Below are positions 41,201-58,665 of a stretch of DNA of 64,000 bases, one piece after another. The notes below the pieces were generated by a model, which was not told where the DNA came from, did no database searches, and worked only from the letters and a program-made list of their open reading frames with translations. This DNA is from Massalongia carnosa (Eukaryota): contig OZ287067.1 of NCBI GenBank assembly GCA_965645245.1, forward strand, positions 3,534,001 to 3,598,000, in the 5' to 3' direction. The translations under genes were made by a program, and so were the position numbers. Each line of letters begins with the position of its first letter. Positions within the stretch are counted from its first letter, which is position 1.

Positions 41201-43620
41201 TTCGACATGCCTTTAACCGACTTAGGATGAAAACCGAAAAGGACGAAGATCTCACAACCTTCCGCACGCGATTTGGGTCATATAAATCTCTAGTATTACC
41301 CTTCGGACTGACCAACGGCCCTGCTACGTTTCAGAACTTCATCAACGATACCTTCTTAGAATATCTAGACGAATTCCTAATAGCCTATCTGGACGATCTC
41401 TTGGTTTATAGTGAAACCATGACTAACCACCGAAAACATGTTCGAAAAGTTCTACAAAAGCTTCGAGAAGCTGGTATTCAGGCTGATGTGGATAAATGCG
41501 AATTCCATGTGACCGAAACAAAGTTCCTAGGATTGGTAGTCGGGCGGAATGGGATCAAGATGGACCCTACCAAAATTGAGGCAGTCGTCGCATGGGCCAT
41601 CCCTAGGCATCTTAAACAGGTGCAGGCCTTTCTAGGATTTATCAACTTTTATAGACGTTTTATCAAAAGACTTCTCCAAAATAGCCAAACCCCTCGTACA
41701 TCTAACTCGAAAAGACGAACCATTCAATTGGACCCCAGCCTGCCAAGCAGCTTTTTCCGAATTGAAAAGACGGGTGACCGAGGCCCCGGTCCTCGCGCAT
41801 TTCAGCCCAAGCCGAGAAACGTTCGTGGAATCGGATTCATCTGATTATGTGTCAGCCGGAGTATTATCGCAAAGAGGTGAAGATGGACTTATCAGACCAG
41901 TAGCCTTCTTTTCAAAGAGCCTGTTGCCAGCCGAATGCAATTATGAAATATACGATAAAGAATTGCTTGCAATAATCAAATGTTTCGAGCAATGGAGGCC
42001 TGAACTGCAATCCACCGAGCTCCCAATCAAAGTGTTGACCGACCACAAAAGCTTGGAATATTTCATGACAACCAAAAAGCTAAATAGGCGACAGGCCAGA
42101 TGGGCTGAGTTTCTGGCCGATTTCAATTTTGTCATCACATACCAAGCTGGAAAATTCCATACAAAGGCAGATGCACTAACTAGAAGACCAGGAGACAGGC
42201 CCGAATCAGAGGAAGATGACAGGCAAAGACATCAACATCAGATAATCTTACCTCTCGAAAGCCTAGACCCTCAAATCCAAAAGGAAATGGGGTTTGAAAT
42301 GAACGAGATCAATGCAGAAAAGTCGAAAGATCCGCTCGAGAATAATGCCAAACTATTTGTCCCCGAAGAAAAGAGAATGAAGCTGATACAGGAAGTTCAC
42401 GATCAACCAGCCGTTGGCCATCCGGGAATAAAGCGGACCTACGAGATGATGAAGAAATTCTTTTTTTGGCCAAAGATGAAAGGAACCATAGAACAATACA
42501 TTCGAAATTGTCATACATGCAAAAGAGCAAAACCTCCAAGGGACGGTTATTCCGGACTATTAAATCCACTACCTATACCAGACCGGCCCTGGACAGATAT
42601 ATCAATGGATTTCGTAATTGGCCTACCTGAAAGCAAAGGTCATAATGCAATATTAATGGTAGTAGACCGATTTTCCAAGATGCATCATTACATTCCATGC
42701 ACCACGGACGAAGAAGGGACAACTGCCGAAGAGACGGCCCGAATGCTAACAAAACATGTATGGAAATTGCATGGCCTACCGACCACGATAATCTCAGATA
42801 GGGGATCTCAATTCGTATCGCTAGTATGGAAATCGCTATGCGTAATGCTGGGAATAAAAGCCAAGTTATCAACCGCATTCCATCCCGAGACCGACGGCCA
42901 AAGCGAAATATCCAATCAAGAAATGGAGCAATATCTGAGAACCTATGTCAATTATCAGCAAGATGACTGGACAGAGTGGCTATCGATGGCCGAGTTCGCA
43001 TCAAATGCCTGTATCTCAGCTTCAAGTGGATTATCTCCATTTCAGGTCAACTATGGGTATGAACCGAGGATGAGCTTCTATCCGATTGACGCATCTACTG
43101 GATCGGCCAGAGAAAGAATATTGAAAACTCGAGCAAAAAATATCGGCCAAACAATGGAGAAACTCTGGGAATTCGGAAAAGAAAACCTAGTACGAAGCCA
43201 AGAAAGTCAGAAGAGATTCGCGGACAATCATCGGGAGGAGGCACCAACCTATAAAGAAGGAGATGAAGTTTGGCTATCAACCAAAAATATCAAAACGGAA
43301 AGGCCTTCGAAAAAGCTAGATCATAAGATGATCGGACCGTACAAGATATTAAAAGCTTTGGGGAATAGCTATAAGTTAGATCTTCCAGCATCAATGAAAA
43401 TACACGATGTTTTCCATTCATCATTACTCCGACCAGCAAGTAAAGACCCATTGCCCGGACAAATACCCCCGCCTCCACCACCGGTAATAATTGACAACGA
43501 GGAAGAATTTGAAATTGATGCTATTTTGGATTCAAGAACTTTCAACAAGAAGCTACAATACAAGGTAAAATGGAGCAATTACCCACCGGATAACACATGG
43601 TATCCGGCCGAAGATTTAAT
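38254..43620 (+). mobile_element. 3'-truncated Ty3/Gypsy chromovirus
   Basis: 5' LTR 38254-38442 (TGTCA...TTACA). Gag 38711-40006 with CFNCDLTGHMAKDC. Pol with IDTGS protease, YLDD RT, RNase H and integrase, frameshift near 41670. Chromodomain is cut at ~43620 and there is no 3' LTR. Confidence 0.95.
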
Positions 43621-43683
43621 CAATTTCGACTATGATTTCACTCGCTATGGCGGGCTTTATTACTGTATGAAGACCAGCCGGTC

Positions 43684-43880
43684 ATGAATGACAACAGGCT
43701 TGCAGCGTTCAATGGACACGAAGTTATCCTGAGCATGATCATGGGTGCTATGGTAGAGCTGGAGGCACAATATCAGCACCGGCGGACAGCATTAATATGG
43801 GCAGCGGAACTAGACCACGAAAAGGTGGCAGTGATGTTGCTGGACAAGGGCGCGGAGACGAATGCTCAAGGGAGAAGGTT
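43684..43880 (+). pseudogene. Ankyrin-repeat gene fragment
   Basis: LAAFNGHE..., TALIWAAELDHEKVAVMLLDKGAETNAQG, with no complete gene around it. Confidence 0.65.
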
Positions 43881-44115
43881 TGACGACTTCCTGCTATTTG
43901 GAACAGTTCGAGCACACCGCTGGCCTCTCTGCTACCGCGGGCGAGTTCAAAACCTAGGAATAGTTAGCGAGCTCGATCGTTCTGTCACTCATGTTCTGAG
44001 CTTTCAGCTTTGGACAAAATAAGATGTAGTATTCTTACAATGCTTTGTTCACCAAATGCCCAAACAGTTAAGTTTTAAGAATAATAGGATTTAGTTCTGA
44101 TTTATATGAATCGCT

Positions 44116-47096
44116 TTAAGACTCCAATGATAAACTCTCCATCTGCCACTCATTGAGAGCCTCAAGCGAAGACTCTGTATCAGGATGTTGAGGACCCAAT
44201 TTGTGTCTTCGTAGTTGAAAACATTCATTTAGCAGTGAGAGAGCCTCATCATTGCGGCCTTGAGACTTCCACGTGAATGCAAGGTTGCTCATGCTATTCA
44301 GCGTGTCTGGATGCTCCGCCCCTAGCACCCTCTTTCTCGTCTCCATCACTTGCACCTCCAGCTCTTCGATTTGCATCCATCGTCCCTGATTCCAATACGT
44401 CGACGCAAGATTGTTCATGCTAGTCAGCGTGGAAGGATGCTCCGCCCCTAGCACCCTCTTTCTCGTCTCCATCACTTGCACCTGCAGCTCTTCGGCCTCC
44501 GTCCATCGTCCTTGATTCCAATACGTCAACGCAAGACTGGCCATGCTAGTCAGCGTGGAAGGATGCTCCGCCCCTAGCACCCTCTTTCTCGTCTTCATCA
44601 CTTGCACCTCCAGCTCTTCGGCCTCCGTCCATCGTCCTTGATTCGAATACGTCAACTAAAGATTGGCCATGCTAGTCAACGTGGAAGGATGCTCCGCCCC
44701 TAGCACCCTCTTTATCGTCTCCATCACTTGCACCTGCAGCTCTTCGGCCTCTGTCCATCGTCCTTGGTTCCAATACGTCGACGCAAGATTGGTCATGCTA
44801 GTCAGCGTGGAAGGATGCTCCGCCCCTAGCACCCTCTTTCTCGTCTCCATCACTTGCACCTCCAGCTCTTCGGCCTCCGTCCATCGTCCTTGATTCGAAT
44901 ACGTCAACTAAAGATTGGCCATGCTAGTCAACGTGGAAGGATGCTCCGCCCCTAGCACCCTCTTTATCGTCTCCATCACTTGCACCTGCAGCTCTTCGGC
45001 CTCCGTCCATCGTCCTTGGTTCCAATACGTCGACGCAAGATTGGCCATGCTAGCCTGCGTGTCTGGATGCTCCGCCCCTAGCACCCTCTTTCTCGTCTCC
45101 CTCACTTGCACCTGCAGCTCTTCGGCCTCCGTCCATCGTCCTTGATTCCAATACGTCGACGCAAGATTGGCCATGCTAGTCAGCGCGGAAGGATGCTCCG
45201 CCCCTACCACCCTCTTTCTCGTCGTCATCACTTGCACCTCCAGCTCTTCGGCCTTCGTCCATCGTCCTTGTTCATTGTATGCCAAGGCTAGCATAGTCAT
45301 ACTATTCAATGTCTCTTCATCCTCTGGACCAAGCACTTTTTGCCTGGTTCTTGTTGCTTTTAGGGCCATTGTCGCTGCTTCAGCGTAACTCCCTTTCGCC
45401 CACGCATACTATGCAGCGTGATATAGTATCAAGGCCCAATCTTGTAATGAGCTTTCGACAGCTGGCTCCTGCGCTTCTGCCGACTTTGCGTGAGGAAAAA
45501 GCGCTTGACAATTTGTCCATTTCTCGTAATTTCCCGTCGGAAATACTGTACTGAGATTCTTGATATACTGCTGCTTCCATCTTTCGAGCTGATTGGATGC
45601 TTCTAGCCACTTTCTGATCGCTAGCTGCACTAACCTGTGCATCTCAAAGGTGGTTTCATCCATGCTGATGGTGATGAACGAGAAGTTTCTCAAGACAAGT
45701 ATGTCGGCTTCAAACTCGTCGACGCTGGAATCGGATACGGTATCCTTATCGCTATCGTCTTCGTGGTCATCATCTTCGTCATTTCCAGCATTTTCTCCCG
45801 TATTTTCATTTCCTGCCTCGTTTTGTGTCTTGAGTAATGCCTCAGGAATTCCCTGTCGATCGAAAAAGCTCATAAGCGATAGCAGATTAGCTGCCGAAGG
45901 CTTGATCTGATGAATATGATCAAACGATATTTGCCAGGTTATAATGATTGAATTTTTAGCCTCCAGGTCCCTGCGAAGATGTCCCGCTTCGTGATTCAAC
46001 AGACTGGTCTTTCTTTTATCATTTTTATAGAACTCTTTTATGTACTGTCGAACAGAATATCTTGGTACTCTTTGTCGAATGTATGCGGCCGCTTGAACGA
46101 TGGCAAGCGGCATGAATTCGAGTGCTGCTGCTAGCTCAGCAGTGTCATCTCTGTCCATCTGTTCTCCCAGCTTCTTTTCAAGGAGCGTTAGCGCATGTGT
46201 ATCGTCCATCGGCTCAACCGCTATTATGTCGCTTTCTTCTGCTAGCCGCAATGCCACGCTTTTAGTCCGGGAGGTGATGAGAATCGAGCCGTTTCGACTC
46301 TGAGGTAGATATGCTAACAGTGATTGCGTGGGCCCGCCGCTAGACCCGCTGGCCTGCGCCTTCTGGCCCGTGACAAGAGTTTCGAAAAGCACAGTAGCTT
46401 CGTCGGCATTGTCGAGGACCAGAGCCCACTTTCCGTTCTTCTCGTCGCGTAACCACTTGTCAACTAGCCGGAATATGTCCGCCTTTGGGTCCTCCCTGCC
46501 ACGAATCTTGACTTGCTCTGCAACATCCCGATAACCTTGCTCGATACGGGCTGCATTACTAGCGTCTATCCAGAACACCCACGTCGTCGGCAACTGCTCT
46601 CTGATTCGATAGCAGTACTCGATGGCAAGCTGCGACTTTCTTTGCGAAAGTAAGCTATTAGAACTAGCCTGAGGCCCTTTGGCTTACCCAACGCCGCCTA
46701 GGCCGACAAGCGCTACCCTTGATGCTGGCGCCGAGCACTTTTCGTGGATCTGATCAAGTAGCGTTCCGCGATCGACGAAATCAGGGTCGCGGCGGAAAGG
46801 AACAGCAGATGATGGGCTTGGTGGGGTATCGGGTCTTTCTACCAACGCAGAATGCTATCAGCCTTGGCTCACAGGACGCTATATCATTGCGAATGGCGAC
46901 TTACCTGGATATTGAACAATATTGTTTGTCTGAGAGCCTAATCAGGATTTAGCATAAGATCGATATCGATGTGAACAGGACGCAAACCAATCACTTTCGC
47001 ATAGCCTGAGACGTCACCGATCACAACGCCTTGGTTGCCAGAAATCGTGCCAAAATCCTTCGTGCCTGTAGAGACTACTGGCATGTTACCGGCCAT
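44116..47096 (-). pseudogene. NLR (STAND): short N-terminal amyloid-like motif, NB-ARC, TPR repeats; 4 exons; three in-frame TAG stops
   Basis: Exons 47096-46988, 46937-46905, 46838-46688, 46639-44116 give ~938 codons. Walker A GLGGVGKS, Walker B LVLDNAD, ILITSR, PLAIVQAAAYI, MHRLV. TAG stops at 45409, 44908 and 44656. Confidence 0.92.
44250..45330 (-). repeat. 126-bp (42-aa) TPR tandem repeats with high internal identity, about 8 plus a terminal repeat
   Basis: Consensus STLTSMANLASTYWNQGRWTEAEELQVQVMETRKRVLGAEHP. Confidence 0.95.
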
Positions 47097-47304
47097 TGCT
47101 GCGTCGGAAGATTGTAGACATTAGAGCTCGGAGCTATATTGAATAAGACTTGAAAACCATTACCTTTACCGTGCTCAGGACCGCACCTAGGCTCGGCCGG
47201 AAACTCGACGCCCAAGACTTTCTAAAAGCACTGTTCATCTCTAAGTATAAATATAGGCACGGACTCGCCGATGGAGGGTCATACGGGATAGATGGCTGAT
47301 ATTA

Positions 47305-48608
47305 TGGTAGGTCGTTAGTGTCCGGATAGGCGAATTTAAACGAATTTCATAGCAGTATGAATTATCTATTGTTGCTGTTACAAAATCAACGTTTCAGTAA
47401 AATGATGCGATTATTTGTTTACATATAACTAATATTTAGTATAACCTCCATTCGCATTCAGGACTGCTTGCACTCGACGAGGCATTGACCGCATTAAACT
47501 TTCCAAAAACGCCTCCGTTATGTAGTCCCATGCCTCCAAGACAGCATCAACAATGGCCTCTTGAATTTTTGGGGCACTTGCTGACAGAATGCGTAATTCG
47601 GGGTGTCTTCTAAAGACTATGTTCTTCAATTTCTTCCATACCATCTCAATGGGGTTCAAATCGGGGGACTAGGCCGGCCAATCCATGACCGTGTACCCCT
47701 TTTCTTTGAACCAGTCCATTGTCTCTCGAATTTTGTGTGTTTTAGCTCCATCTTGCATGAAAACAATCCCCGAATCGTCATCGAGCATGGTAGGAAGATG
47801 TTCTTTATAAGCATCGAGTATAATCAACCCTGTGATACCTTTCTTTCCCGTACGATCTGGATCGGGCTCCAACGAGGTCAAACCACCCCGTCGATTGCCT
47901 GCAAAGCAGCCCTAGAACATCTTTGCGACTCTCGATCCATTGTTGACTGGTTCGAAGCATTCTTGATCCCATTTCTCATTTGTAAGTCGAAAAACCCACA
48001 CGTTCTCACTCTCATCCTGTTTGCAAACTGACATCTCATCAGACCAACACACTTGAGCCCACTCATCCTCCGAAACATCCTCATATTGACGTGCCCAGCC
48101 CAGCCGATCAGCATTATGAGCTTCCGTTAACATCGTACGATTAGCTGCGCGCCATTTGCGAACGTTTTGATCTCGAAGACGTCGTTTCATGGTGGTTCGA
48201 GAAACATCGGGCATAATGTTAGCTTGCAACTCCCCCAGAGGCTGTCGACGACCCTTTGACCCCGATTTAATCGCTGCTCGTATCAAATGACGATCCTCTC
48301 GTGCTGTGGTTATTTTGGGCCGACCAGATCGTACTTCCGATTTGTGGTCGTCGCGTGTTGTAGCCTTCTTCAAAGTGTCTCCTATGGTGGAACGACCCCA
48401 TTGCGGAAACTTTTCGTGTATAGTACTAACGGAGGCGCCGGCGAGGCCCATACCGTACGTTTCAGCTCTGATTATGACGGGCACTTCTTTGCACGTAGTT
48501 CTAGGCTATTTAGAGCTACGTGGTGGTGGCATGATGGATTGAAAGGTGGTTGTTTACTTTTCAAAACTAAAAAAATTCTCGCCTATCCGGACACTTCTGA
48601 ACCCCGCA
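47305..48608 (-). mobile_element. Tc1-like DDE transposon with nonsense mutations
   Basis: Transposase 48532-47429 (WSDE, MQDGA, SPDLNPIEMVW) with TAG stops. Inverted repeat core AGTGTCCGGATAGGCGA at 47317 and 48579-48595. TA flanks; exact ends approximate. Confidence 0.88.
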
Positions 48609-50035
48609 TAATAGAGCCAAGGCTATGCACGTGCTGAAGCGCCTGGTCTCTCCATGCAGGCGGTATCACAATTATCTCGCATAAGTTATACAGTCGAACC
48701 CCATAACGATGGTGGCGTTTTACCAAAATAATTTCGTTATAGCGGGTTTTTCATTATATCGGGGGAGATGGAGAAAATCATGGTAAATTTACTACTTTGC
48801 CCACCTATAAACTCCCAATTCCCCCCCTTGTCCCCAGCAACTACCCAAGTGCTTAAAGTAGATTGCTTTTGACTGTTTCGCCGTCTTTCAAACAGCCCCC
48901 GTTCATGCCTTCGTAATTGACGAAGCATGCCCATATCGCCCTTCAACTGCTGTTCTTCATGCAGTCTCAGGATGCTACAAGCCTCCTGTGCTTGACAGAC
49001 CGTTATAACATGTGTAACTTCCACCTCTTCATCCGTCTCAGCGAGCCTTTCCTGCTCCGCATATGGTGAAACGATAGCTTTCACAATATCTTCATTTGTG
49101 TCCCCTATAGCCTCCTCGGGCGGGTTTATAAATTGATGAATGTTCATCGCCTCTTCTATTCTACCCATGACCTGCATCTGACGTATGTCCTGTGTAATCT
49201 CTTGCAAAACAGTCAAGGACTCGACCCCTCTCGAGGTTCTTGGTTGATTGAAGGGTGCTGAACCCCAAGCAACGACTCCTGATCGCCCCCAGCAGTTCTG
49301 TATGGTGGAAGGTTTGACGTCGTTTTCCCATGCTGAAATCGTCGTCCATTTATATGACCATTTAACCAATGCAAATATTCTCTCATGATGATGTTGTTAT
49401 TCCAGGCCTTGGGAGTATACCTCCAAACAGCACCCACATTCTCCAGTCCATGAATTTTGGCATCCCGAAAACAATTTGGCCTTTTGGCCTTACCAATGAA
49501 CCAGATATTAGGTTTATCCGACCCATCAGCATTACATGTGAGACAAGCAGTGATTCTAGCCTGTTATAATTAGAACTCTGCCAAATTGAAGCAGCTTACT
49601 GTGAAAAACACACCTTATCCTGCTTCTGACCGGCGTGCCTCTCAGTACCAAGAGATCGATCGGGTGCCATTTTCCAAAAAAGCCCTGTTTCATCCATGTT
49701 ATAAACGTCTTTAACAGCATATTCAGATACTAATTTACGAAGATCAGTCATTATCTGCTGTACATTTTCGCTTTGATCAGCTGAACCAGCCTCGCCATGA
49801 TGAATGCGTTGTTTGAGTCCTCGTCGTCTTTTAAACCGATCCAGCCAGTCATTGCTCCATTTCGGAGTGGGAATACCTTCATACTGAGGCAGTTTGATCC
49901 ACAACTCGGTGGCCTTGGTCCGTAGCACGTCAGCATTAACAGTAAGATTGGCCTGTTCATATCGCTGCTCCCATTCGAACAAAGCATCTTCTAACACAGG
50001 CTATTTGGGAATAACCTCCCGTTTGATTGAACTAG

Positions 50036-53000
50036 TGTTGCGTCTAGGCAAGATTATACGAGTGTTGAAAGATGTTGATTAAATGAGCAAGTCTGCTCGC
50101 CTATATAAGCTTAAAATACGCTAGTCTCAATTGAGACTTTCCATAAAGGGAGCTACGACTATAGTCATAATACCATAATACCATAGCTATAACAGATGCC
50201 GATAAAAAAGCAAAAAGGTTAGCGACCTCGCTGACGCCCTCTACCCCTTCTAACGTTGCCTTCTCTGGGTAGTCCAGCTTCGTATTCGTCGACCAATTCT
50301 TTGCAGTCCTTTAAGTCCTCTAGTTTGTACCAACCGTTATGTTCATGACCATAGCCTTTCCATTTGACAAGGTATTGATTTTTACCCCTTGTTATCCTTT
50401 TATTTAGTAGCTTTTCTACCTCGTAGGCCGGATCCTGAACCTCGCCCTCTTCCTCTACAGGCGGGGGTTCTGGATTAGATAATCTACCGTATGGGTCTGG
50501 ACCGGTATGAGGTTCGAGCTGAGCTATGGATATCACTGGATGTATTTTCATTGATGGAGGTAACTCTAACCGATACGCCAGATTGCCTACCTTCTCCAGG
50601 ACTTTAAACGGACCTACTCTCTGATAGGAGAGCTTTCTATTGGAAAGACCCGGAATAGTGTATCCATGATGAAGTTTAAGAAAGGCCTTGTCTCCTATTG
50701 CTATTGGTTTGTGTGACTTGTCGTATCTAATTTTCGACATGGCTGAGGCGAAGGCCATGGCGGAATCAGCTTCCTCTCTTTTGATCATACGTAGTCTGCC
50801 GAAGTCTTCTGCTGGGAGGTCTGACAGCAGACTGACAGAGTCATTGACCTTGAAACCGTAAAGCAATTCATTTGGAGCGAAGCCGGTTGAAACATTAACG
50901 GCATTATTCATACTGGTTTGAATGAAGGGTAATATACTGACCCAGTCATTGGTTTCTCCAGTAGTAAGATGATAGCGTAGGGCAATCTCAATCGTCTGAT
51001 TAGTGCGCTCCGATTGCCCATCGGTCTGCGGGTGATAGGCGGTGGAGGTAAGCATGGCTACTTTTAGCTTGGAGAATATTGTTTTCCAGAAGGATGACAT
51101 GAACTTGGCATCTCTGTCACTGATGATTGCGCGTGGGATTCCCCAATCATGTTGTAAGAGCGCCACTATGACTATGTTGGCCCATTGGACTGCGTCATAA
51201 GTGGTCTTTCCTTGTAGCAATAGCACCTTTTTTGAGAACTTATCAGTGATGGTGAGAAGACTGTCATACCAGTCTGGAGGCGTCCCTGGTAATGCCACTA
51301 TGAAATCCATTGCTATGGTGTGGAAGGGCATAGCCGGAGTGACAATGGGATTGAGTTCTCCATATGGTGCGTGCCTCTTGGTTTGGTTCAACTGACATTC
51401 CGGACAATGCGCTATGTACGTTCTCAACCTTTTATTGAGGTGACGTATGTAGATCGAGTTAACTATCCGATCATAGGTTCTATGAAAGCCACCATGACTG
51501 GTCCTGTCATGAGCTTGCCTGAAGATCTCCTCCTCTAGGGAAGCGGGTATACATAATCGCTCTCGCCCATCGTCGGCTGATACGTAGTATAATAATCCAT
51601 TTCTATAGCGAAAGCGAATTCCAATGCGGGAGCCTTCTGGTGGGGTGGAATTGTCGTTCGTCAATTCGGTTGCCTCGCCTTCGTTGATTGAGGACAGGTC
51701 GCTCTCCTTTGGTTTTATTAGGTTTAAAATCTTTTCCCAATATTCGTCATCATCGTATGCTTTTTTGAGCCTATTTTTGAACTCATCCGCCCTTTCTACC
51801 AGTGTGACGTGATAGGCTACGGGAGCTAGGTCTGGTAGTAGGGAACTTAGCTCATGCTGAGCCAAGTTAACCGGGCATCCATACAAGGCTTCCAGTTCGC
51901 CTATCTTTTCAGCTGTAGATACGTCTGCTTGAAGGCGTGATAGGGCATCCGGGACGATGTTGGTTTTACCAGATTTGTGACGCAGAGTAAGATTGAATCC
52001 AGACAAGTACTGTGACGCCCGAACGAGTCTTAAGTTAAGCTTATCAGTGCTCGATGTAGTCATACTGGTTTGACGGGAGATGGGAATAGCGGCCGAGTGA
52101 TCAGTGTATATGATGGTAGGTGGGCATTCTGTCGATTCTATCATGTGCCTGATTTTTCGTACAACCCATACTATGCCGGCAATCTCTAGTTCAGTCGGCC
52201 AGTAGTTCTTCTCGGCGGAGTTGAGGCACCTGCTAAGAAACATAATCGGTTCAATGTCAGCTTGGGCGGGATAAGCACTTGGAATGATGAGAATATCGCC
52301 TTTGACATGATAGATTATAGCGGCGAATCCCCAGGATTTCGAGGCATCTAGGTCCACATAAAGACGGCGTTTGGGGCTGAAATGAACCAGAAATCTAGGA
52401 GACCTGAACGCGTCTTGCAAGTCCTTGAAGGCTAGCACTTCCTCTGTGGTCGGGTCGTAGAAGAATACTCGAATAGAGTGCCGTTTACGGGCAGGACCCT
52501 TGGAACTGACCGGGAGCGTACGTGTTAGCGCGGTTTTTCGTTCATGAAGAGGATTTGCTCTTTGAGCGTATCGCGGGATAGACGTCCGCAACCACCCGGT
52601 GAGTCCAAGGAATATTTCTAAGTCTCGTAGATTGATTGGGAACAACAGAGACGTAATAGCGGCTATTTTTTCTTCTGATGTTGACATTCCCAAGGAGTCC
52701 ACGCGCTGACCGAGTAGTATGACGGATGGATAACCCAGAAATGACTTGGAAGGTGCTAGACTGACTCGTTTGAGTCGAAACGTGTCAAACAGCTGTCGTA
52801 AATGAGCTACGTGCTCTTTCAGAGTGCTGCTGAATATAATGATGTCGTCCATAAAAGCTCTAGCGAATTTACGGTACGGCCGTAGCAGCCTGTCAGTTTG
52901 TCGTTGAACATAGGGTGGAGTTCCTTTATATCCCATTAAGGCTACTCCGAATTCCTCTTGTCCCCTATGACTAACAACGGTAAGTTTGTGCCGATCCTTG

Positions 53001-56000
53001 TGTTGAACACTAAACTGGTAGAACCAGCCCACTGCGTCCACCGTACTGATATAAGGATAACCGGAGACCGCTGCGATGATATCGCTTTGTAAAGGCAAGG
53101 GATAGCTATCTATTTCCGTAATGTCATTTAGTCCTCTGATATCTATGACTACTCTACCCTTTCGTCCACTTGGAGTATCCTTCCACACTACGAAGCATGG
53201 ATAGCTGAACGTTGTAGGTTGAGTGGTGAACTTAAGTTTTCCCTGTTCCTGAAGCTTATCAAAAGTTGTGTCGATACATTCTTTATCTCTTTGTCCTACC
53301 GGGTACACCTTCGCGGGCGGTTTTGGTACGACACCTGATTTCAGGTTGATGGGCATCCATTCTTCCTCCGGAATGTCCACGGTCGTACCCTGATCGATGA
53401 ACACATCTTGGTATTCGGTGACAAGGTCAGAGAGCGGTTGATTCATACCGATATGGCCATAAACGGTAACTCCGTTAAATAGCTTCATCTCCATATCGGG
53501 AGCTATAACTGAGGTGGGTTTTATCGAAGTGGTGGTATCAACACCGATTGTGCCACTAGATGATACGGATGTGGCATAAGCCGTAGCCATTAAGGCCGCT
53601 CCCTTTGTGATTAATGATCTTATAGATCTTCCAGTCTTCCATCCTGACGTAGCTAGATGGGCTTCCGCTGGTAATGTCATGTAGCATCCATGGTGCGTGT
53701 ATTCTACCACTGATCCTAGGCGAGCTCTCTTCGGAAGAACCACCGGAGTGCTGGTAGCGTTATGAATGTTTACCCATGATAGGTCAGTGTCTACTATGTG
53801 GGCGAAAACGCCTCCCTCATGCCCCAAGTCATGACTGGCTGCAAGCTGTGGTTCGAAGAGAAAATCTCTGTCATCTGGTAACTGTCCATTGAAAGTGACT
53901 GGTACGCGCATGGTCGTTCCAGGAAGAACAGTGAAGGCATTCTTAGATCGGATCGTGCGCTTGATGTGTGGAGCAACACGGGCACGACTGTTGATGGGTA
54001 TCTTGATGCCCTTGCAACTATCGATCGTCATGATCTGCTTCCCTAAGTCTAAGGTCATACCTTGAGGCGTCATGACGTCGTTTCCTATGAGTAGATTGAC
54101 TTTCAGGTCATCTACTATGTGGACCTCGATGATTATTACGCCGGTAGCAGGACCATCCTTGGAGATTCCATCAAGATTTACCTGTACAAGAGCTACTTCA
54201 TCTGTTCTTACCTCGCCTTTACCTACTCCACGAATAGGAACCGGAGATGCCATTCTAGTGATGACGAGATCCGGAACATGCTTCTGTAGATAAGCACGAT
54301 CTCCCATAGTAACCGAAGTTCCGGAATCCAAGCATATTTCTGACATCAGAGCGGAGCTTCCATAGGATACTTGAGCGGTAGCATAGTGATAACCTCGAAA
54401 GGCATATCCAACACCCTTGGTTTTATCAGGGCTGATAGTTGACATTATTTTCTGTCTAAGATCGGTAGAGGAGGGTGATGTTTTTACGACCGCTAAGTTA
54501 GGTGAAAGCTTATCCTTGGCGACTGTAGTCATCATGCTGACTGTAGTCAGCGTATCCTCCGTTTGAGACCAGCAGTCCTTTCGTAGATGGCGAAATAGTT
54601 TATTCCTTGATGAGAAGGAGGCCGCACATCTTGTGCAGAGAAAAATACTTGGTTCGACCGGAACAACAAAATTTGATGTTTCCTCATACTGGTATGGGTA
54701 CTCTTCTTCCGAAAACTCCTGCTCGTTCCGTTCTTCTGCAAAGTGTGTTCCTAGCTCTTTCTCGTAGTTCCCGTAATCATCCTCGAGCTCCTCTGAGACC
54801 GAAGTCTGATATGCCTTCTGTTGAGGTCTTACGTGGTCAGACCAAGTACCACGATTAGACCCTGGTTGCTGCTGCGGGTTCGTCATGGGACGAAGAGGTT
54901 GTCTAGGACCTCCGGGTGCGTTTGAAGGTACGTCCGCGATCTGAGGACGTTGGAACTGATTGGAGGGTACAGAAGCTGGGGCTCTTGCGTTTACGTTGGA
55001 TAGGTTGTTCTGATAGCGAGGATCTTGTCGTGTCTGTTGTGAATATCCGTTGTGTTGGAAGCCACCATTGGGTGTACCCAGATATCTTTTGTCGAAGTAT
55101 CCCTGTAATTGCTGAGGCATGTAAGTCTGACCAGTTTGCGGAATACGATAAGATTCTCTATAAGGAAACTGATGCTGATCCTGAAAAAGCGACTTGTTCT
55201 GTTGAAAAGGCACTTGAAAAGGCCGTTGAAATGAACGAGAAAGAGACTGAGAAGGTCCTCCTCTTGTTTCGAACTTACTAGGTTGAATACGAGTGACCGG
55301 ATGAGAGCGAGGTGCCTTGGCCCGAGCCCACCAGTCATGCTTACACTCATCCATGTCCTGAAGAAATTCGCTCAAGGTAGTGCCTTCCTTAGGCCTACGA
55401 AGGTCGCTTTGTCGCACCTCATTGTCTATACCGTTATAGATAATGTCCAACTGATTCTGCACACTGGTCATACCAGCATCCTTCGCAGATCGAAGCATCT
55501 TTTGGGCATACTCGCGTGGTTCCCGTCGATTAGCCGCGTCACGAATGGTGTACTTCTCATGTAAGATGGCATCCATAGCTATGTTGGATGGCTGCTGGAA
55601 CCTCCGTAAGAGTAACCTCTCCCATTGGCCTATCGATGTGTCTCGGCTGCCTGCTAGCTTGGTCATCTCCCGCTTATCGTCATCCAACTCACTGTGCCAC
55701 CACTCCAATGCTTCGCCCTGTAAACACATCCACAGATTATTTCTCACTACGGCAGCACCCTTGGTGATGGCCATTTCCTTAGCCCTCTGGACAAAGAGAT
55801 GAACGTCTCGGAAGTAAGTCTTGGTACCGTCATGTTCTATAGCGTTCCCGGTGCTGATAGACTTTTCATCGTAATTGGGATCAAAAAACCCTAACTCGGA
55901 AGATACCCAACGTGATTCTCCCCGAGGAGCACCAGCAATGGATCCTCCGTCCTCTGTGGACACACCAGGGTCAGGTGGGGAAGTTTTGGCAGCGGCAACG

Positions 56001-56887
56001 GCATATTTGGCTAGGGCATCTTCGACTGCCTTGTTGACCAAGGCTTCGATGTGAGCTTGGGATACAGTGGCTGCACTAGCGCTGGACCCGGCCATCTCTC
56101 TTGGTTCGATGGGTTGAGGAGTAGTGCTAGGGGGACGGTTAGTATTGTCGCGTTCCGCGAATGGCTGATAGGTTGGATGCTGTCTATGAGGCTTAGTTCT
56201 TATTCGATAGTCCTCGAAGACCGCTGTCCGGATGTCTTTTTCAGACCAGTTTGAAGGGTACGAGATAGTCTGAGAGCGTGTAACTGAACGGGTTCTGGCG
56301 CCAGAGCTTTCCGAGATCTCCCGTAAGCCTTCTGGTCGAGGAGAGACTGTAACCAGGTACTTGACAAAGCTTGCTATGCGAAGAGGTAGTTCCAAGGTCA
56401 AGCTGGGATGGTCCGCCAACAGGTCGTGGATCTGAAAGGTCAGAACGAGAAGATCCTCTTCCACGGGGATGGGGATGGAAGATGGAGCCAGGGTGATGGC
56501 TGTTCCAGTCAATGTACTGGTGGACAGGCACAGTAACACGGATGAAAGATAAGGTGAAAGATGTGCAGGATAGTAAGGTCGGATGTGAATGTCTGCTAAG
56601 GCAGACCGAGCTTGGTTGAGTTCCTCAGCAAACAACTGGTGCCGGAGGACTGGCGATAGCTGAAGACGTATCAATTGGTGTCTAGAAGCTATCGTACTGG
56701 AATCAAGAAATCAAAACAGTGCTACCATTGTTGCGTCTAGGCAAGATTATACGAGTGTTGAAAGATGTTGATTAAATGAGCAAGTCTGCTCGCCTATATA
56801 AGCTTAAAATACGCTAGTCTCAATTGAGACTTCCCATAAAGGGAGCTACGACTATAGTCATAATACCATAATACCATAGCTATAACA
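50036..56887 (-). mobile_element. Intact Ty3/Gypsy element with a single gag-pol ORF
   Basis: 159-bp LTRs (50036-50194, 56729-56887, one mismatch), TSD ACTAG, and tRNA-type PBS TGGTAGCAC next to the 5' LTR. Confidence 0.97.
50219..56674 (-). CDS. Gag-Pol polyprotein (gag, C2H2-like finger, protease, dUTPase-like segment, RT, RNase H, integrase, chromodomain); start codon uncertain
   Basis: Uninterrupted 2151-codon ORF with CLDSGT, FMDD, DLDASK, HxxxxH..CPEC, ISDRD, DGQSE, YEVEKLL..YLVKWKGY. Confidence 0.95.
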   Translation of the reverse strand: MIRLQLSPVLRHQLFAEELNQARSALADIHIRPYYPAHLSPYLSSVLLCLSTSTLTGTAITLAPSSIPIPVEEDLLVLTFQIHDLLADHPSLTLELPLRIASFVKYLVTVSPRPEGLREISESSGARTRSVTRSQTISYPSNWSEKDIRTAVFEDYRIRTKPHRQHPTYQPFAERDNTNRPPSTTPQPIEPREMAGSSASAATVSQAHIEALVNKAVEDALAKYAVAAAKTSPPDPGVSTEDGGSIAGAPRGESRWVSSELGFFDPNYDEKSISTGNAIEHDGTKTYFRDVHLFVQRAKEMAITKGAAVVRNNLWMCLQGEALEWWHSELDDDKREMTKLAGSRDTSIGQWERLLLRRFQQPSNIAMDAILHEKYTIRDAANRREPREYAQKMLRSAKDAGMTSVQNQLDIIYNGIDNEVRQSDLRRPKEGTTLSEFLQDMDECKHDWWARAKAPRSHPVTRIQPSKFETRGGPSQSLSRSFQRPFQVPFQQNKSLFQDQHQFPYRESYRIPQTGQTYMPQQLQGYFDKRYLGTPNGGFQHNGYSQQTRQDPRYQNNLSNVNARAPASVPSNQFQRPQIADVPSNAPGGPRQPLRPMTNPQQQPGSNRGTWSDHVRPQQKAYQTSVSEELEDDYGNYEKELGTHFAEERNEQEFSEEEYPYQYEETSNFVVPVEPSIFLCTRCAASFSSRNKLFRHLRKDCWSQTEDTLTTVSMMTTVAKDKLSPNLAVVKTSPSSTDLRQKIMSTISPDKTKGVGYAFRGYHYATAQVSYGSSALMSEICLDSGTSVTMGDRAYLQKHVPDLVITRMASPVPIRGVGKGEVRTDEVALVQVNLDGISKDGPATGVIIIEVHIVDDLKVNLLIGNDVMTPQGMTLDLGKQIMTIDSCKGIKIPINSRARVAPHIKRTIRSKNAFTVLPGTTMRVPVTFNGQLPDDRDFLFEPQLAASHDLGHEGGVFAHIVDTDLSWVNIHNATSTPVVLPKRARLGSVVEYTHHGCYMTLPAEAHLATSGWKTGRSIRSLITKGAALMATAYATSVSSSGTIGVDTTTSIKPTSVIAPDMEMKLFNGVTVYGHIGMNQPLSDLVTEYQDVFIDQGTTVDIPEEEWMPINLKSGVVPKPPAKVYPVGQRDKECIDTTFDKLQEQGKLKFTTQPTTFSYPCFVVWKDTPSGRKGRVVIDIRGLNDITEIDSYPLPLQSDIIAAVSGYPYISTVDAVGWFYQFSVQHKDRHKLTVVSHRGQEEFGVALMGYKGTPPYVQRQTDRLLRPYRKFARAFMDDIIIFSSTLKEHVAHLRQLFDTFRLKRVSLAPSKSFLGYPSVILLGQRVDSLGMSTSEEKIAAITSLLFPINLRDLEIFLGLTGWLRTSIPRYAQRANPLHERKTALTRTLPVSSKGPARKRHSIRVFFYDPTTEEVLAFKDLQDAFRSPRFLVHFSPKRRLYVDLDASKSWGFAAIIYHVKGDILIIPSAYPAQADIEPIMFLSRCLNSAEKNYWPTELEIAGIVWVVRKIRHMIESTECPPTIIYTDHSAAIPISRQTSMTTSSTDKLNLRLVRASQYLSGFNLTLRHKSGKTNIVPDALSRLQADVSTAEKIGELEALYGCPVNLAQHELSSLLPDLAPVAYHVTLVERADEFKNRLKKAYDDDEYWEKILNLIKPKESDLSSINEGEATELTNDNSTPPEGSRIGIRFRYRNGLLYYVSADDGRERLCIPASLEEEIFRQAHDRTSHGGFHRTYDRIVNSIYIRHLNKRLRTYIAHCPECQLNQTKRHAPYGELNPIVTPAMPFHTIAMDFIVALPGTPPDWYDSLLTITDKFSKKVLLLQGKTTYDAVQWANIVIVALLQHDWGIPRAIISDRDAKFMSSFWKTIFSKLKVAMLTSTAYHPQTDGQSERTNQTIEIALRYHLTTGETNDWVSILPFIQTSMNNAVNVSTGFAPNELLYGFKVNDSVSLLSDLPAEDFGRLRMIKREEADSAMAFASAMSKIRYDKSHKPIAIGDKAFLKLHHGYTIPGLSNRKLSYQRVGPFKVLEKVGNLAYRLELPPSMKIHPVISIAQLEPHTGPDPYGRLSNPEPPPVEEEGEVQDPAYEVEKLLNKRITRGKNQYLVKWKGYGHEHNGWYKLEDLKDCKELVDEYEAGLPREGNVRRGRGRQRGR

Positions 56888-57398
56888 ACTAGCCTCCTCT
56901 TTATCATCCAAGTAAGCATATTTGGAACTAAGAATCTCGCTGATAGATGCACTCCAAGGCACATAATTTATACTCTCTTTTCCACCACATGCGACAGTCG
57001 TTCTGAGTCACTTTATCCTTTGAATCATCATTGTACCAGTCCCGAAGAGCTTTTCGCTGAATATTCATGATTCCATGACGGGTTTTTTTCGTGGGGGGAA
57101 GATTGACAAAGACATGGAGGCAGGCCATTCTCGAGACATATTTACAGCAGAATCGTAGCAAATATATGATAGTTTTACCACCTCGCTATAACGAACGTCA
57201 CCAAAAATATGAAAATAAATTTCGTTATATCGTAATGGAGGGGTTTTTCGTTATAGCGAGGTTTTTACCATATAACTACAAAAAATGTGAAAAATAATTT
57301 CGTTATGCCGAGGTTTTCGTTATACGGAACTTCCCTATAGCGGGGTTCGACTGTAGTGCTAAATTTGAAGCACGACCCCTCTGTAGTATTGCGCCAGC

Positions 57399-58665
57399 AT
57401 GGCCGAACCGTACGGATTAGGCGAACCCCTCTTTGATTCTCCAGAGGCGAATATAGAGTACGCACCAGATGTCATTTCTCGTCCGGGTTGCTTTGTACTG
57501 ACCAAACAGTATTGTCTTCGTCCACGGGCTCGGCGGCGACAGAGTGAAAACTTGGACATGGGAGGGTCGAGATATATCGCTGTTGTGGCCGCAAGATCTC
57601 TTACCTCAAGCCTGCCCAACAGCTCGCATCCTTTCTTTTGGGTACAATGCAGACTTTGCTCACTTCTATCCGTTTGTTGGACCGAAATTCATCCCGGAGC
57701 ATTTGACTATTGATGATCACGCGACTGCAATGTTCCAGAGCCTAATCGGTCTTCGCGAGAAAACCAAAACTGTAGGAATCGGCGCACCCCTACCCTTTCC
57801 ACCAGAAATATGCTAATAGGATGTCTATGTCCAGGCTGAACGGCCGATTATTTTCGTCTCGCACAGCCTAGGGGGTCTCGTGTGCGCCAATGCGTTGTCA
57901 AGGCACAATGGTACCGACATTGCTAGCACTTCCCTCGTAGAGAGAACGATTGGAGTCGTCTTCCTTGGAACGCCCTTTGAGGGATCGTCAAAAGCAAAAT
58001 GGGGAAGCAGGGCTCTACAGATACTGGGTTGGATAAGCACCACGCATAAGCAGGATACAAAGGATCTTGAAGAGCGTTCGGCAAAGCTCATCAGCGTTAA
58101 CGAGGCCTTTCAGAAATTTCTGAAAGCACGGGATCGTTCAGAATCAAGAGAGTTTGTAGAAGTAGCTTGCTTCTTTGAACAGTATGCTATGTACAAGGGA
58201 GGGACGAAGATGGGATTTATCGTGCCCAAGGAATCGGCTTGCCTGCCTGGTATCGATCCACAGTCGATCCACGCGAATCATGTTGATATGTGCAAGTTTG
58301 AGGATGAAGACCGAGAGGGATACAAGAGAATTTCACAAAAGTTGGTTCAATGGATATCGGATCTTGATAGTCGATCCAAGGGGTCTGGAGAGGATCGCCA
58401 GGTCTGACATCTCTTTCGCACGCTTGAAATCAGCTGAAACCCAACAGAAACATTCGGTTCGTATGGGCGATGTTAACTTTAGGGACAAAATCGATAACAA
58501 TCGAGGTGTGATTATGGGTCATGCAAATAGTACGGCCACAGAAGGGGTTAAGATAACTGGGACTAGTATCACTGTAAGGATCACCTATCCTTTCGATAGC
58601 GATGTACAAGCTGACAGAACACAAAGAATACTTATCATGGCATTAACCCAAAAGGGTCTGTGTAG
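57399..58665 (+). CDS. SesB-like alpha/beta-hydrolase (putative lipase) with C-terminal amyloid-like motif; 5 exons, ~350 aa
   Basis: Exons 57399-57457, 57510-57771, 57835-58401, 58448-58573, 58627-58665, all in frame. Motifs DIVFVHGLGGD..TW, WPQDLLP, ARILSFGYNA, IIFVSHSLGG, FLGTPFEGS, ANHVDMCKF. Confidence 0.88.

What the first reader, a model, noticed from the sequence alone, without database searches (positions are those of the whole stretch)
44116..58665. Head-to-head NLR and SesB-like hydrolase sharing a candidate new amyloid signalling motif
Seen: after splicing, the NB-ARC/TPR protein has no folded effector domain and begins MAGNMPVVSTGTKDFGTISGNQGVVIGDVSGYAKVIGSQTNNIVQYP before the ERPDTPP..VPFRRD linker. 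The divergent hydrolase ends ...KHSVRMGDVNFRDKIDNNRGVIMGHANSTATEGVKITGTSITNTYHGINPKGSV*. They align as VSTGTKDFG-TISGNQGVVIGDVSG----YAKVIGSQTNN versus VRMGDVNFRDKIDNNRGVIMGHANSTATEGVKITGTSITN. Established: fungal NLRs with an N-terminal amyloid motif sit next to effectors with the matching C-terminal motif (NWD2/HET-S, PNT1/HELLP with PP, het-eN/SesA/SesB with sigma) and activate them by amyloid templating. Inference: this is such a pair. Its N-x-G-V-[VI]-[IM]-G core lacks the central Q of PP/RHIM and the N/G/Q repeats of sigma, and the effector is not clearly two-repeat like HET-s, so it may be a new motif class coupled to a lipase-type effector. The ORF track does not show the NLR motif because it lies on small exons.
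Basis: partly seen in the sequence, partly recalled or inferred. Interest (0 to 1): 0.93.

Follow-up and report, generated by a model that had tools for sequence, protein, structure and literature searches.

The report
NLR and hydrolase share signalling motif
A fungal immune-receptor gene and the neighbouring lipase-like gene carry matching short tails of the kind fungi use to pass a death signal by prion-like templating; the tail type seems undescribed, but here the receptor copy is broken and transposons split the pair.

Summary
The spliced NB-ARC/TPR NLR (minus strand, 44116-47096) starts with a 36-47 aa motif. The spliced SesB-like hydrolase (plus strand, 57399-58665) ends with a related ~43 aa motif. 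Homologues confirm both splice models.

A profile built only from homologous hydrolase tails finds two places in the 64 kb window: the hydrolase tail and NLR exon 1. Both sides are conserved families, and their profiles match each other (hhalign P 2e-8).

The pairing recurs elsewhere:
- Aspergillus nanangensis has consecutive accessions for a NACHT NLR and the hydrolase.
- Metagenome contigs L001 and L007 show it head to head.
- L008 and L009 have divergent partners whose motif co-varies with their own hydrolase tail.

The motif is not recognised by the Pfam PP, sigma or HET-s models, nor by my own PP profile. It keeps PP's N-x-G-h-x-h-G-x-x-x-G skeleton, with V/I in place of the central Q.

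The NLR here has three in-frame TAG stops. Three nested transposons (47271-57353) split what was about 0.3 kb of shared intergenic DNA.

Verdict: a probable amyloid-signalling pair using an apparently undescribed, PP-related, Q-less motif. This copy is decayed, and amyloid behaviour is untested.

The parts
44116..47096 (-). NB-ARC/TPR NLR gene, four exons, 938 codons, no N-terminal effector domain. It is interrupted by three in-frame TAG codons.
   Evidence: Searches give the model. One search gives NB-ARC (weak), DUF7779 and TPR_10. One search shows a gapless alignment with P0053.
46905..47096 (-). NLR exons 1 and 2 (46988-47096, 46905-46937) with the 50-nt intron between them. They encode the N-terminal motif, about aa 7-43.
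   Evidence: The same exon-1 motif appears in 26 of 29 hits of the exhaustive profile search.
45412..46638 (-). NOD module: Walker A (split by the 48-nt intron 46640-46687), NB-ARC and DUF7779.
   Evidence: One search finds 1429 homologues with E <= 0.001.
44119..45408 (-). TPR_10 repeat array of 42-aa (126-nt) units.
45409..45411 (-). In-frame TAG at codon 508, where homologues have Trp.
   Evidence: P0053, P0049 and P0052 have W there. All covering contigs of 4 public runs read C at 45410, which gives TGG.
44908..44910 (-). In-frame TAG at codon 675 inside a TPR unit (CTT TAG TTG where other units have CTT GCG TTG/TCG).
44656..44658 (-). In-frame TAG at codon 759, the same variant TPR unit 252 nt downstream.
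47271..48610 (-). Tc1/mariner-type transposon insertion (1340 bp) in the intergenic region.
   Evidence: HTH_Tnp_Tc3_2 hit. Contigs of 3 of 4 runs join 47270 to 48611.
48689..57353 (-). pogo/Tc5-type transposon with matching terminal repeats and TA flanks. It carries the nested gypsy element and is about 1.8 kb without it.
   Evidence: HTH_Tnp_Tc5 hit. Terminal repeats seen. Contigs of 4 of 4 runs join 48688 to 57354.
50031..56887 (-). Ty3/gypsy LTR retrotransposon with a 2163-aa open frame and 164-nt LTRs that are 98% identical. It is nested in the pogo element.
   Evidence: ORF 50219-56710; LTRs 50031-50194 and 56724-56887; joints 50029/50030 to 56887/56892.
57399..58665 (+). SesB-like alpha/beta hydrolase gene, five exons, 350 aa, intact.
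   Evidence: DUF676, Abhydrolase_6 and PGAP1 hits in 30-31 of 33 scanned members of A4, 32 of them homologues. The AF2 model of homologue P0001 has an alpha/beta-hydrolase core.
58448..58665 (+). Hydrolase exons 4 and 5 (58448-58573, 58627-58665) with the 53-nt intron between them. They encode the C-terminal motif.
   Evidence: (65.4 bits to a profile of homologues). The tail of P0001 has low pLDDT and no secondary structure.

Best explanation
This is a two-gene NLR/effector module of the fungal amyloid-signalling type. An NB-ARC/TPR receptor has no effector domain of its own and carries a short N-terminal motif. The divergently transcribed SesB-like serine hydrolase carries the matching motif after its folded domain.

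Inferred mechanism, by analogy with NWD2/HET-S, PNT1/HELLP/SBP and het-eN/SesA/SesB: ligand binding to the TPR array drives NOD oligomerisation. That brings the N-terminal motifs together so that they adopt a stacked beta-arch (amyloid-like) fold. The fold then templates the disordered tail of the hydrolase and so activates or concentrates the enzyme as a cell-death or defence effector.

The motif is an about 36-43-residue family built round N-x-G-[VI]-[VI]-x-G. It has the glycine/asparagine spacing of the PP motif but a hydrophobic residue in place of PP's central glutamine.

In this assembly the module is decayed. The NLR has three premature TAG codons, and three transposons have been inserted into what was about 0.3 kb of shared upstream DNA. 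The hydrolase is intact.

Shown here: the gene models, motif homology, family conservation, recurrence of adjacency, and co-variation. Inferred: amyloid folding, templating, and the activity and role of the hydrolase.
For: Motif match within the window:
- The hydrolase-tail profile picks NLR exon 1 as the only other hit in the window.
- It ranks the window NLR first of 121 NLR N-termini, and 0 of 1988 scored shuffles reach its score.

Both sides are conserved families:
- Effector side: 33 of 37 stand-alone hydrolase homologues carry the C-terminal motif. 32 of these built the profile; P0021 did not. They span several named orders of Pezizomycotina.
- NLR side: an exhaustive search of 1.84 billion proteins gave 29 hits with E <= 0.001. 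26 carry the motif, 24 as short exon-1 ORFs and 2 as long NLRs, at or near the N-terminus.
- The motif sits on NB-ARC NLRs (TPR in the window, P0053, P0116 and P0121; P0200 seen as NB-ARC by its N-terminus only). It also sits on NACHT-type NLRs (P0174 with ankyrin repeats; P0183 by its N-terminal sequence). It therefore behaves as a portable module.

The two families recognise each other:
- hhalign gives probability 95.3%, P 2.1e-8 over 27 columns.
- The effector profile hits 26 of 32 NLR-side sequences and 0 of 117 other NLR homologues. The NLR profile hits 15 of 40 hydrolase tails.

Adjacency recurs:
- L001: the NLR motif exon lies head to head 284 bp from the hydrolase.
- L007: an NB-ARC/DUF7779/TPR_10 NLR lies divergently upstream.

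Co-variation:
- In L008 and L009 the divergent upstream ORF carries the locus's own variant of the tail motif (0 of 200 shuffles each). In L007 5 of 200 shuffles reach the score.
- Own-partner scores beat 715 of 720 permutations of six pairs.

Other support:
- None of the fused hydrolase-NLR proteins carries the motif.
- The tail of P0001 is predicted to be unstructured beyond the hydrolase fold: pLDDT 30-63 and no secondary structure from residue 290.
- Contigs of public runs join across the transposon boundaries, so the ancestral intergenic region was about 297 bp.
- PP- and sigma-type NLR/SesB pairs are established in the literature (passages of PMC3321046; PMC5485727).
Against: - No experiment or structure shows that this motif forms amyloid or cross-seeds.
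- Pairwise similarity within the window pair is modest. In L001 the pairwise score alone is not significant (17 of 200 shuffles).
- In Dendryphion nanum and Lindgomyces ingoldianus the motif-bearing NLRs and hydrolases found here lie on contigs of different length, so they are not adjacent.
- L004 shows no partner within 1.1 kb upstream.
- The L008 partner has no NOD domain by Pfam.
- The NLR here carries three stops and the shared promoter is disrupted, so this copy may do nothing.
- No transcript data were available for the splice forms.
- The co-variation test does not remove shared ancestry.
Confidence: 0.7

Rival explanations
1. It is simply a divergent subfamily of the known PP motif (PNT1/HELLP/SBP type). 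On this view the mechanism is the same and there is no new class.
For: - The spacing N-x-G-h-x-h-G-x-x-x-G is the same as in the PP-type N-termini of the closest NB-ARC/TPR relatives.
- Both of our profiles align to a PP profile in that register at weak significance (P 0.023 and 0.0018).
- 2 of 35 effector tails have Q at the central position.
- PP is already known on SesB-like lipases next to NB-ARC/TPR NLRs.
Against: - A PP profile that detects 48 NLRs at E <= 0.01 (up to 60.7 bits) gives at most 1.6 bits on the NLR-side family and 5.3 bits on the tails.
- Pfam PF17046 is absent from the listed hits.
- The central residue is V, I or A in 32 of 32 NLR-side sequences and hydrophobic in 33 of 35 tails.
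- The conserved stretch is 36-43 aa, against the 17-23 aa given for PP (PMC3321046 passages; Table 1 of PMC9815663).
Confidence: 0.35
2. The shared motif mediates an ordinary, non-amyloid interaction or a common regulatory or targeting function. An example would be the NLR N-terminus docking the hydrolase tail as a soluble beta-strand pair.
For: No amyloid evidence exists for this family. The L008 partner that shares the motif is not a recognisable NLR, so the motif may serve more than NLR signalling.
Against: - The architecture matches the established amyloid-signalling pairs: an effector-less NLR, a motif at the NLR N-terminus and the effector C-terminus, clustering and co-variation.
- The motif is rich in G, N, V, S and T, with invariant glycines at fixed spacing.
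- The tail is predicted to be unstructured.
Confidence: 0.15
3. At this locus there is no working system. It is a relic in a transposon-rich region, with an NLR pseudogene beside a hydrolase that now acts alone or not at all.
For: - Three in-frame TAG codons.
- Mariner, pogo and gypsy insertions between the genes, ending 45 bp before the hydrolase ATG.
- The rest of the window is mostly transposon ORFs: LINE, gypsy, MULE, DDE_Tnp_4.
Against: - This concerns only this copy and is compatible with the main explanation for the family.
- Public runs read TGG at codon 508 and hold transposon-free junctions, so intact alleles may exist.
- The hydrolase frame and its conserved Ser and His are intact (invariant columns).
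Confidence: 0.6
4. The resemblance is chance similarity of two low-complexity peptides.
For: Both peptides are short and rich in G, N, V, S and T. Pairwise identity is only about one third.
Against: Profile tests with shuffles and whole-window controls, reciprocal family recognition, and recurrence in independent loci.
Confidence: 0.02

Closest known systems
PNT1 / HELLP / SBP cluster with the PP motif (Chaetomium globosum, Podospora anserina; Daskalov 2012, PMC3321046; review PMC5485727)
   Same: An NB-ARC/TPR NLR without an effector domain, a SesB-like lipase carrying the matching C-terminal motif, clustered genes, and the same N-x-G-h-x-h-G-x-x-x-G spacing. The window NLR's nearest NOD relatives mostly carry PP.
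   Different: - The central Q that defines PP (NxGxQxGxN) is V, I or A in 32 of 32 NLR-side sequences and hydrophobic in 33 of 35 tails.
- The conserved region is about twice as long.
- Neither PF17046 nor my PP profile detects it.
- No HeLo-like third partner was found in the window.
het-eN / SesA / SesB with the sigma motif (Nectria haematococca)
   Same: A SesB-type alpha/beta hydrolase effector with a C-terminal extension about 40 aa long, homologous to the N-terminus of a neighbouring NLR. The motif-bearing 5' exon is easily missed because of an intron, as reported for het-eN (PMC3321046 passage). Sigma-bearing hydrolases (P0040, P0044) are homologues at 35-39% identity.
   Different: Sigma is three repeats of GxGxQFN or GGTQNINT units. 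These are absent here, and PF17106 does not match.
NWD2 / HET-S and the HRAM families
   Same: The same logic: one motif copy on the NLR, a cognate motif on the effector, and h-x-h-G elements.
   Different: HRAMs are 21-residue repeats present twice on HeLo, HeLo-like or SesA proteins (PMC4518210 passages). Here the h-x-h-G elements are 17 and 14 residues apart, the effector is a hydrolase, and PF11558 does not match.
PUASM on PNP_UDP effectors (Wojciechowski 2022, PMC9815663)
   Same: A later-found fungal ASM family tied to an enzymatic effector and discovered through NLR/effector adjacency.
   Different: PUASM has the pattern FxGxGxQxxGxGxF and occurs only with PNP_UDP and NACHT NLRs (section 24). 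That pattern is absent here.

Membership tests
Fungal NLR/effector amyloid-signalling pair (general) | The NLR lacks an N-terminal effector domain and has a short N-terminal extension. | tested here: met
   About 47 aa precede the linker and Walker A, and they have no Pfam domain.
Fungal NLR/effector amyloid-signalling pair (general) | The effector carries a C-terminal extension beyond its folded domain. | tested here: met
   The hydrolase fold of P0001 ends at about residue 289. The tail has low pLDDT and no secondary structure. The window protein aligns end to end with it.
Fungal NLR/effector amyloid-signalling pair (general) | The two extensions are homologous. | tested here: met
   (P 2.1e-8; reciprocal hits).
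Fungal NLR/effector amyloid-signalling pair (general) | The genes are adjacent. | tested here: met
   Here they are divergent, about 297 bp apart once three transposons are removed. Adjacency also holds in A. nanangensis (by consecutive accessions), L001 and L007. It does not hold for the proteins found in D. nanum and L. ingoldianus.
Fungal NLR/effector amyloid-signalling pair (general) | The extensions co-evolve within a cluster. | tested here: inconclusive
   L007, L008 and L009 match their own partner best. 5 of 720 permutations reach the observed sum. There are only six pairs and shared ancestry is not removed.
Fungal NLR/effector amyloid-signalling pair (general) | The motif forms amyloid, behaves as a prion and cross-seeds its partner. 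| not testable with these tools
   This needs in vivo or in vitro work.
PP motif (Pfam PF17046) | A pseudopalindrome NxGxQxGxN centred on a conserved Q, about 17-23 aa long. | tested here: not met
   The central residue is Q in 0 of 32 NLR-side and 2 of 35 effector sequences. PF17046 is not among the listed hits (only the top 25 families are listed). My PP profile gives at most 5.3 bits. The G/N spacing is shared.
Sigma motif (Pfam PF17106) | Three repeats of GxGxQFN or GGTQNINT units. | tested here: not met
   No such units appear in the alignments. PF17106 is not among the listed hits.
HET-s / HRAM (Pfam PF11558) | A 21-residue unit with G at position 19, duplicated on the effector, which is a HeLo-type protein. 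| tested here: not met
   The h-x-h-G elements are spaced 17 and 14 residues apart (read from the sequence). The effector is a hydrolase. PF11558 is not among the listed hits.
PUASM | The pattern FxGxGxQxxGxGxF on PNP_UDP effectors. | tested here: not met
   The pattern is absent from both alignments. The effector is an alpha/beta hydrolase.
BASS1-10 (bacterial) | A match to the published BASS profiles or grammars. | not testable with these tools
   The profiles are not available here. The HMM and FASTA supplements of PMC9815663 cannot be read.
SesB-like alpha/beta hydrolase | An alpha/beta-hydrolase fold of the DUF676/PGAP1 type with a nucleophile Ser in an H-S-x-G-G elbow, and homology to proteins named SesB. 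| tested here: met
   - DUF676, Abhydrolase_6 and PGAP1 match in 30-31 of 33 scanned members of A4, 32 of them homologues.
- The HSLGG elbow and a later His are invariant in 28 homologues and kept in the window.
- P0038, named SesB, and the sigma-bearing P0040 and P0044 are homologues.
- The fold matches esterases, thioesterases and lipases.
NB-ARC/TPR fungal NLR | Walker A, NB-ARC, a winged-helix region (DUF7779) and TPR_10 repeats in one open frame. | tested here: inconclusive
   All the domains are present, but the frame has three TAG codons in this assembly.

The most novel reading that the evidence does not exclude
This would be a further fungal amyloid-signalling motif family beside HRAM, PP, sigma and PUASM. 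It is an about 40-residue motif with a hydrophobic core (V/I where PP and RHIM have Q). It is dedicated to SesB-like hydrolases, used by both NB-ARC/TPR and NACHT/ANK receptors across Pezizomycotina, and in some lineages paired with a partner that is not a recognisable NLR (L008). Earlier censuses would have missed it because the NLR-side motif lies on a small first exon before a conserved intron.
Probability: 0.45. Interest if true: 0.75.

Novelty: new variant of a known kind. Interest (0 to 1): 0.66.

Why it matters
Fungal NLRs that signal by prion-like templating are the best-understood case of functional amyloid in immunity. The papers read here describe only five fungal motif families (PMC12261475 passage).

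A widespread family that keeps the PP/RHIM glycine-asparagine skeleton but replaces the conserved glutamine with valine or isoleucine would do two things:
- It would test what the glutamine ladder actually contributes to RHIM-type folds.
- It would provide a natural case of an orthogonal signalling channel.

It also shows that NLR-side motifs on small 5' exons are systematically lost from gene models. 24 of the 26 motif hits in the exhaustive search were orphan exon-1 ORFs. Amyloid-signalling NLRs may therefore be under-counted.

The locus itself illustrates how such modules decay in transposon-rich regions.

Tried and rejected
- Complex prediction of NLR exon 1 with the hydrolase motif exon gave no answer: score 0.01, controls not run. 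It is not evidence either way.
- No RNA holder was listed for the NLR stretch, so the splice forms could not be checked on transcripts.
- The ESM Atlas look-up of the motif exon gave no usable hit.
- No whole genome is held for the window, so a search for paralogues or third partners across the genome was impossible.
- Earlier notes of this scan held nothing on this genome or sequence. The word search returned only unrelated bacterial and phage cases.
- Pfam gave no family for either motif piece.
- The word-indexed search with the NLR-side profile found only 6 proteins.
- Twelve accessions of this family and six motif strings were searched in the readable supplements of PMC9815663, and none was found. 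This absence is weak evidence. The S1 table holds no KAF or KAH accessions at all, and the FASTA and HMM supplements and two large archives could not be read.
- In that paper's S5 pair table, the first 27 of 34 PF05057 rows and all 15 PF12697 rows carry only motif identifiers that also occur with HeLo, SesA or PNP_UDP effectors, or the PGAP1-derived PF07819_017.
- Literature searches and passages of PMC12881547 showed no description of this motif.
- I considered that the motif is a linker relic of a fused hydrolase-NLR. I rejected this because none of the fused homologues carries it.
- The L001 intergenic DNA does not align with the window's, so L001 is an independent orthologue and not the same locus.

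Full report
**What is at the coordinates**

The minus strand between 47096 and 44116 holds a four-exon gene. Exon 1 (47096-46988) starts at an ATG and encodes 36 residues plus one base. A 50-nt intron follows. Exon 2 (46937-46905) adds eleven residues. After a 66-nt intron with a GTAAGT donor, exon 3 (46838-46688) gives the Pro-rich linker and the first half of the Walker A loop.

Pfam finds NB-ARC (weak), DUF7779 and strong TPR_10 arrays, and nothing in the first 36 residues. The annotated Lobaria immixta protein P0053 is 74% identical over the NOD module. It aligns without a gap through all three junctions and starts with a motif 83% identical to the window's. The splice model is therefore supported by homology. 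Transcript data were not available.

The plus strand holds a five-exon hydrolase gene, with exons 57399-57457, 57510-57771, 57835-58401, 58448-58573 and 58627-58665. Its 350-residue product ends as quoted. It aligns end to end, gap-free through all four junctions, with P0001, P0002, the annotated Polyplosphaeria protein P0004 and the Aspergillus nanangensis protein P0008.

Of the 33 scanned members of alignment A4, 32 of them homologues, 30-31 match DUF676, Abhydrolase_6 and PGAP1. One homologue is named SesB and two carry the sigma motif. The AlphaFold2 model of P0001 has a confident alpha/beta-hydrolase core that matches esterases, thioesterases and lipases. Its last ~55 residues have low confidence and no secondary structure.

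1. The NLR frame has three in-frame TAG codons, at residues 508, 675 and 759.
   - At 508, the homologues P0053, P0049 and P0052 have Trp.
   - Every contig of four public runs that covers 45410 reads the base that gives TGG. That stop is therefore private to this assembly or strain.
   - The other two stops lie in one variant TPR unit that occurs twice, 252 nt apart.
2. The genes are divergent but 10.3 kb apart. Three elements lie between them:
   - a Tc1/mariner element at 47271-48610;
   - a pogo/Tc5 element at 48689-57353, with matching terminal repeats and TA flanks;
   - a Ty3/gypsy element at 50031-56887, nested in the pogo, with 164-nt LTRs that are 98% identical.

   Contigs of all four runs join 48688 to 57354, and contigs of three join 47270 to 48611. 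Without the insertions the two start codons would be about 297 bp apart.
3. The rest of the window is largely transposon ORFs.

**Is the shared motif real?**

I built a profile from the tails of 32 homologous hydrolases, none from the window.
- Against 121 NLR N-termini it ranks the window NLR first, at 17.1 bits.
- It is followed by P0116, P0121 and P0053, which have the same N-terminus. The best other NLR reaches 5.8 bits.
- None of the 1988 scored shuffles of the peptide reached 17.1; the maximum was 12.6.
- Over all 1961 six-frame segments of the window it finds only the hydrolase motif exon (65.4 bits) and NLR exon 1 (15.8 bits, E 9e-4). The next hit has E 1.7.

**Both sides are families**

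*Effector side.* 33 of 37 stand-alone hydrolase homologues carry the tail. 32 of them built the profile; P0021 did not. The named homologues come from, among others, Polyplosphaeria, Lindgomyces, Dendryphion, Aspergillus, Penicillium, Xylaria, Fusarium, Pseudogymnoascus, Bombardia and Nannizzia.

*NLR side.* A five-sequence profile was searched against 1.84 billion representative proteins and gave 29 hits with E <= 0.001.
- 26 hits carry the motif.
- 24 of those are short ORFs of 43-105 residues in which the motif begins at or near the first Met and the sequence diverges after V-I-G. That is where the window has its first intron.
- Two are long NLRs, P0183 and P0200.
- The other three hits are large repeat proteins matched in many stretches, and I regard them as unrelated.
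- The motif sits on NB-ARC NLRs (TPR in the window, P0053, P0116 and P0121; P0200 seen as NB-ARC by its N-terminus only). It also sits on NACHT-type NLRs (P0174 with ankyrin repeats; P0183 by its N-terminal sequence).

*Cross-recognition.*
- The two family profiles match each other with hhalign probability 95.3% and P 2.1e-8 over 27 columns.
- The effector profile hits 26 of 32 NLR-side sequences and 0 of 117 other NLR homologues.
- The NLR profile hits 15 of 40 hydrolase tails.
- None of the fused hydrolase-NLR proteins carries the motif.

**Does the pairing recur?**

- *A. nanangensis.* The hydrolase is KAF9893431.1 and the motif-bearing NACHT NLR is KAF9893432.1, both on a contig of 671,713 bases. 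I infer adjacency from the consecutive numbers.
- *Metagenome loci.* Of 80 loci fetched with the hydrolase family, 7 carry the tail motif.
  - L001 has the NLR-side exon (75 bits) head to head, 284 bp upstream. Its intergenic DNA is unrelated to the window's.
  - L007 has a divergent NB-ARC/DUF7779/TPR_10 gene upstream, with a weak match to its own tail (5 of 200 shuffles).
  - L008 and L009 have divergent upstream ORFs that carry their own variant of the tail (0 of 200 shuffles each). The L008 partner has no NOD domain by Pfam, and L009 is cut by the contig end.
  - L003 and L011 have too little upstream sequence to tell.
  - L004 shows nothing within 1.1 kb.
- *Co-variation.* In a six-by-six score matrix the own-partner sum is reached by 5 of 720 permutations. 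This points to co-variation but does not remove shared ancestry.
- *Against.* The motif-bearing NLRs and hydrolases found in D. nanum and L. ingoldianus lie on contigs of different length.

**Which motif is it?**

- *Pfam models.* Pfam's HET-s, PP and sigma models do not appear among the hits for the two window pieces at E 0.1. PF17046 is the PP model, 'misnamed SesB' according to PMC12261475. They also do not appear among the listed families when 33 effector and 31 NLR-side sequences are scanned at E 1 (only the top 25 families are listed).
- *My PP profile.* The nearest NOD relatives of the window NLR mostly carry PP-type N-termini. A profile of 38 of these detects 48 NLRs at E <= 0.01. It gives at most 1.6 bits on our NLR-side family and 5.3 bits on the tails.
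- *Shared skeleton.* The skeleton is nevertheless the same as PP's: N-x-G-h-X-h-G-x-x-x-G. Both profiles align to PP in that register at weak significance (P 0.023 and 0.0018).
- *Central residue.* It is V, I or A in 32 of 32 NLR-side sequences. In the 35 tails it is V, I, M, A or L in 33 and Q in 2.
- *Other families.* The conserved region is 36-43 residues, about twice PP's length. The sigma units, the 21-residue HRAM repeat and the PUASM pattern, as described in PMC3321046, PMC4518210 and PMC9815663, are not present.

I therefore read it as a longer, Q-less relative of PP.

**Is it in print?**

I found no description in four full-text searches. I also found none in the sections and passages I read of PMC9815663, PMC5485727, PMC12261475, PMC3321046, PMC4518210 and PMC12881547.

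Twelve accessions and six motif strings of the family are absent from the readable supplements of the 2022 census. That census's FASTA and HMM files could not be read, and its S1 table predates these genomes. The absence is therefore weak evidence.

**How it most likely works**

The mechanism is inferred by analogy with NWD2/HET-S, PNT1/HELLP/SBP and het-eN/SesA/SesB.
1. Ligand-driven oligomerisation of the NLR brings the N-terminal motifs together into a stacked beta-arch fold.
2. That fold templates the disordered tail of the hydrolase.
3. The hydrolase is thereby activated or concentrated as an effector.

None of these steps has been tested for this motif.

In this assembly the receptor is probably non-functional and the shared promoter is destroyed. 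The locus is best seen as a decayed copy of a module that is intact elsewhere.

Noticed in passing
window 1-43700 and 47271-57353: The window is a transposon island. Its ORFs carry RNase_H, DDE_Tnp_4, MULE, FAR1, a LINE-type endonuclease/RT, and at least three gypsy-type pol regions (32398-36757, 39955-43687, 50219-56710), besides the mariner and pogo elements.
   Followed up: partly
window 43636-44022 (+): A short open frame just downstream of the NLR stop reads like an ankyrin-repeat remnant. It was not scanned against Pfam.
   Followed up: no
window 44656-44910 (-): The two TPR stops belong to one variant 126-nt unit (TAG for Ala, and Ser for Trp four codons on) that is present twice, 252 nt apart. 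A two-unit block was therefore duplicated after the stop arose, or converted.
   Followed up: partly
window 45410: The codon-508 stop is a TGG-to-TAG change (TpG to TpA), the kind of transition that RIP makes. Four public runs read TGG. One site proves nothing about RIP.
   Followed up: partly
L008:5554-8770 (-): The partner that shares the L008 hydrolase's own motif variant is not a recognisable NLR. It has a motif near the N-terminus, a helical stretch and then a long Pro/Arg/Glu-rich open frame, with no Pfam hit at E 0.001.
   Followed up: partly
P0174, P0183: The same N-terminal motif heads NACHT-type NLRs in Byssothecium circinans (with ankyrin repeats) and Aspergillus nanangensis. The motif has therefore moved between NOD classes.
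   Followed up: partly
P0175-P0202: 24 of the 26 motif hits are orphan ORFs of 43-105 aa that run from the Met of exon 1 into the intron after V-I-G. Gene callers that ignore introns split this motif off its NLR.
   Followed up: partly
P0020, P0025: Two hydrolase tails of this family (Neoarthrinium moseri, Conoideocrella luteorostrata) have G-V-Q-h-G at the core. They may be intermediates between this family and PP.
   Followed up: partly
A5 members: Six to seven NLR-side sequences give weak Pfam hits to DUF3850 and DUF7261 (best E 0.0012 and 0.012). This is probably chance on the G/V-rich motif and was not examined.
   Followed up: no
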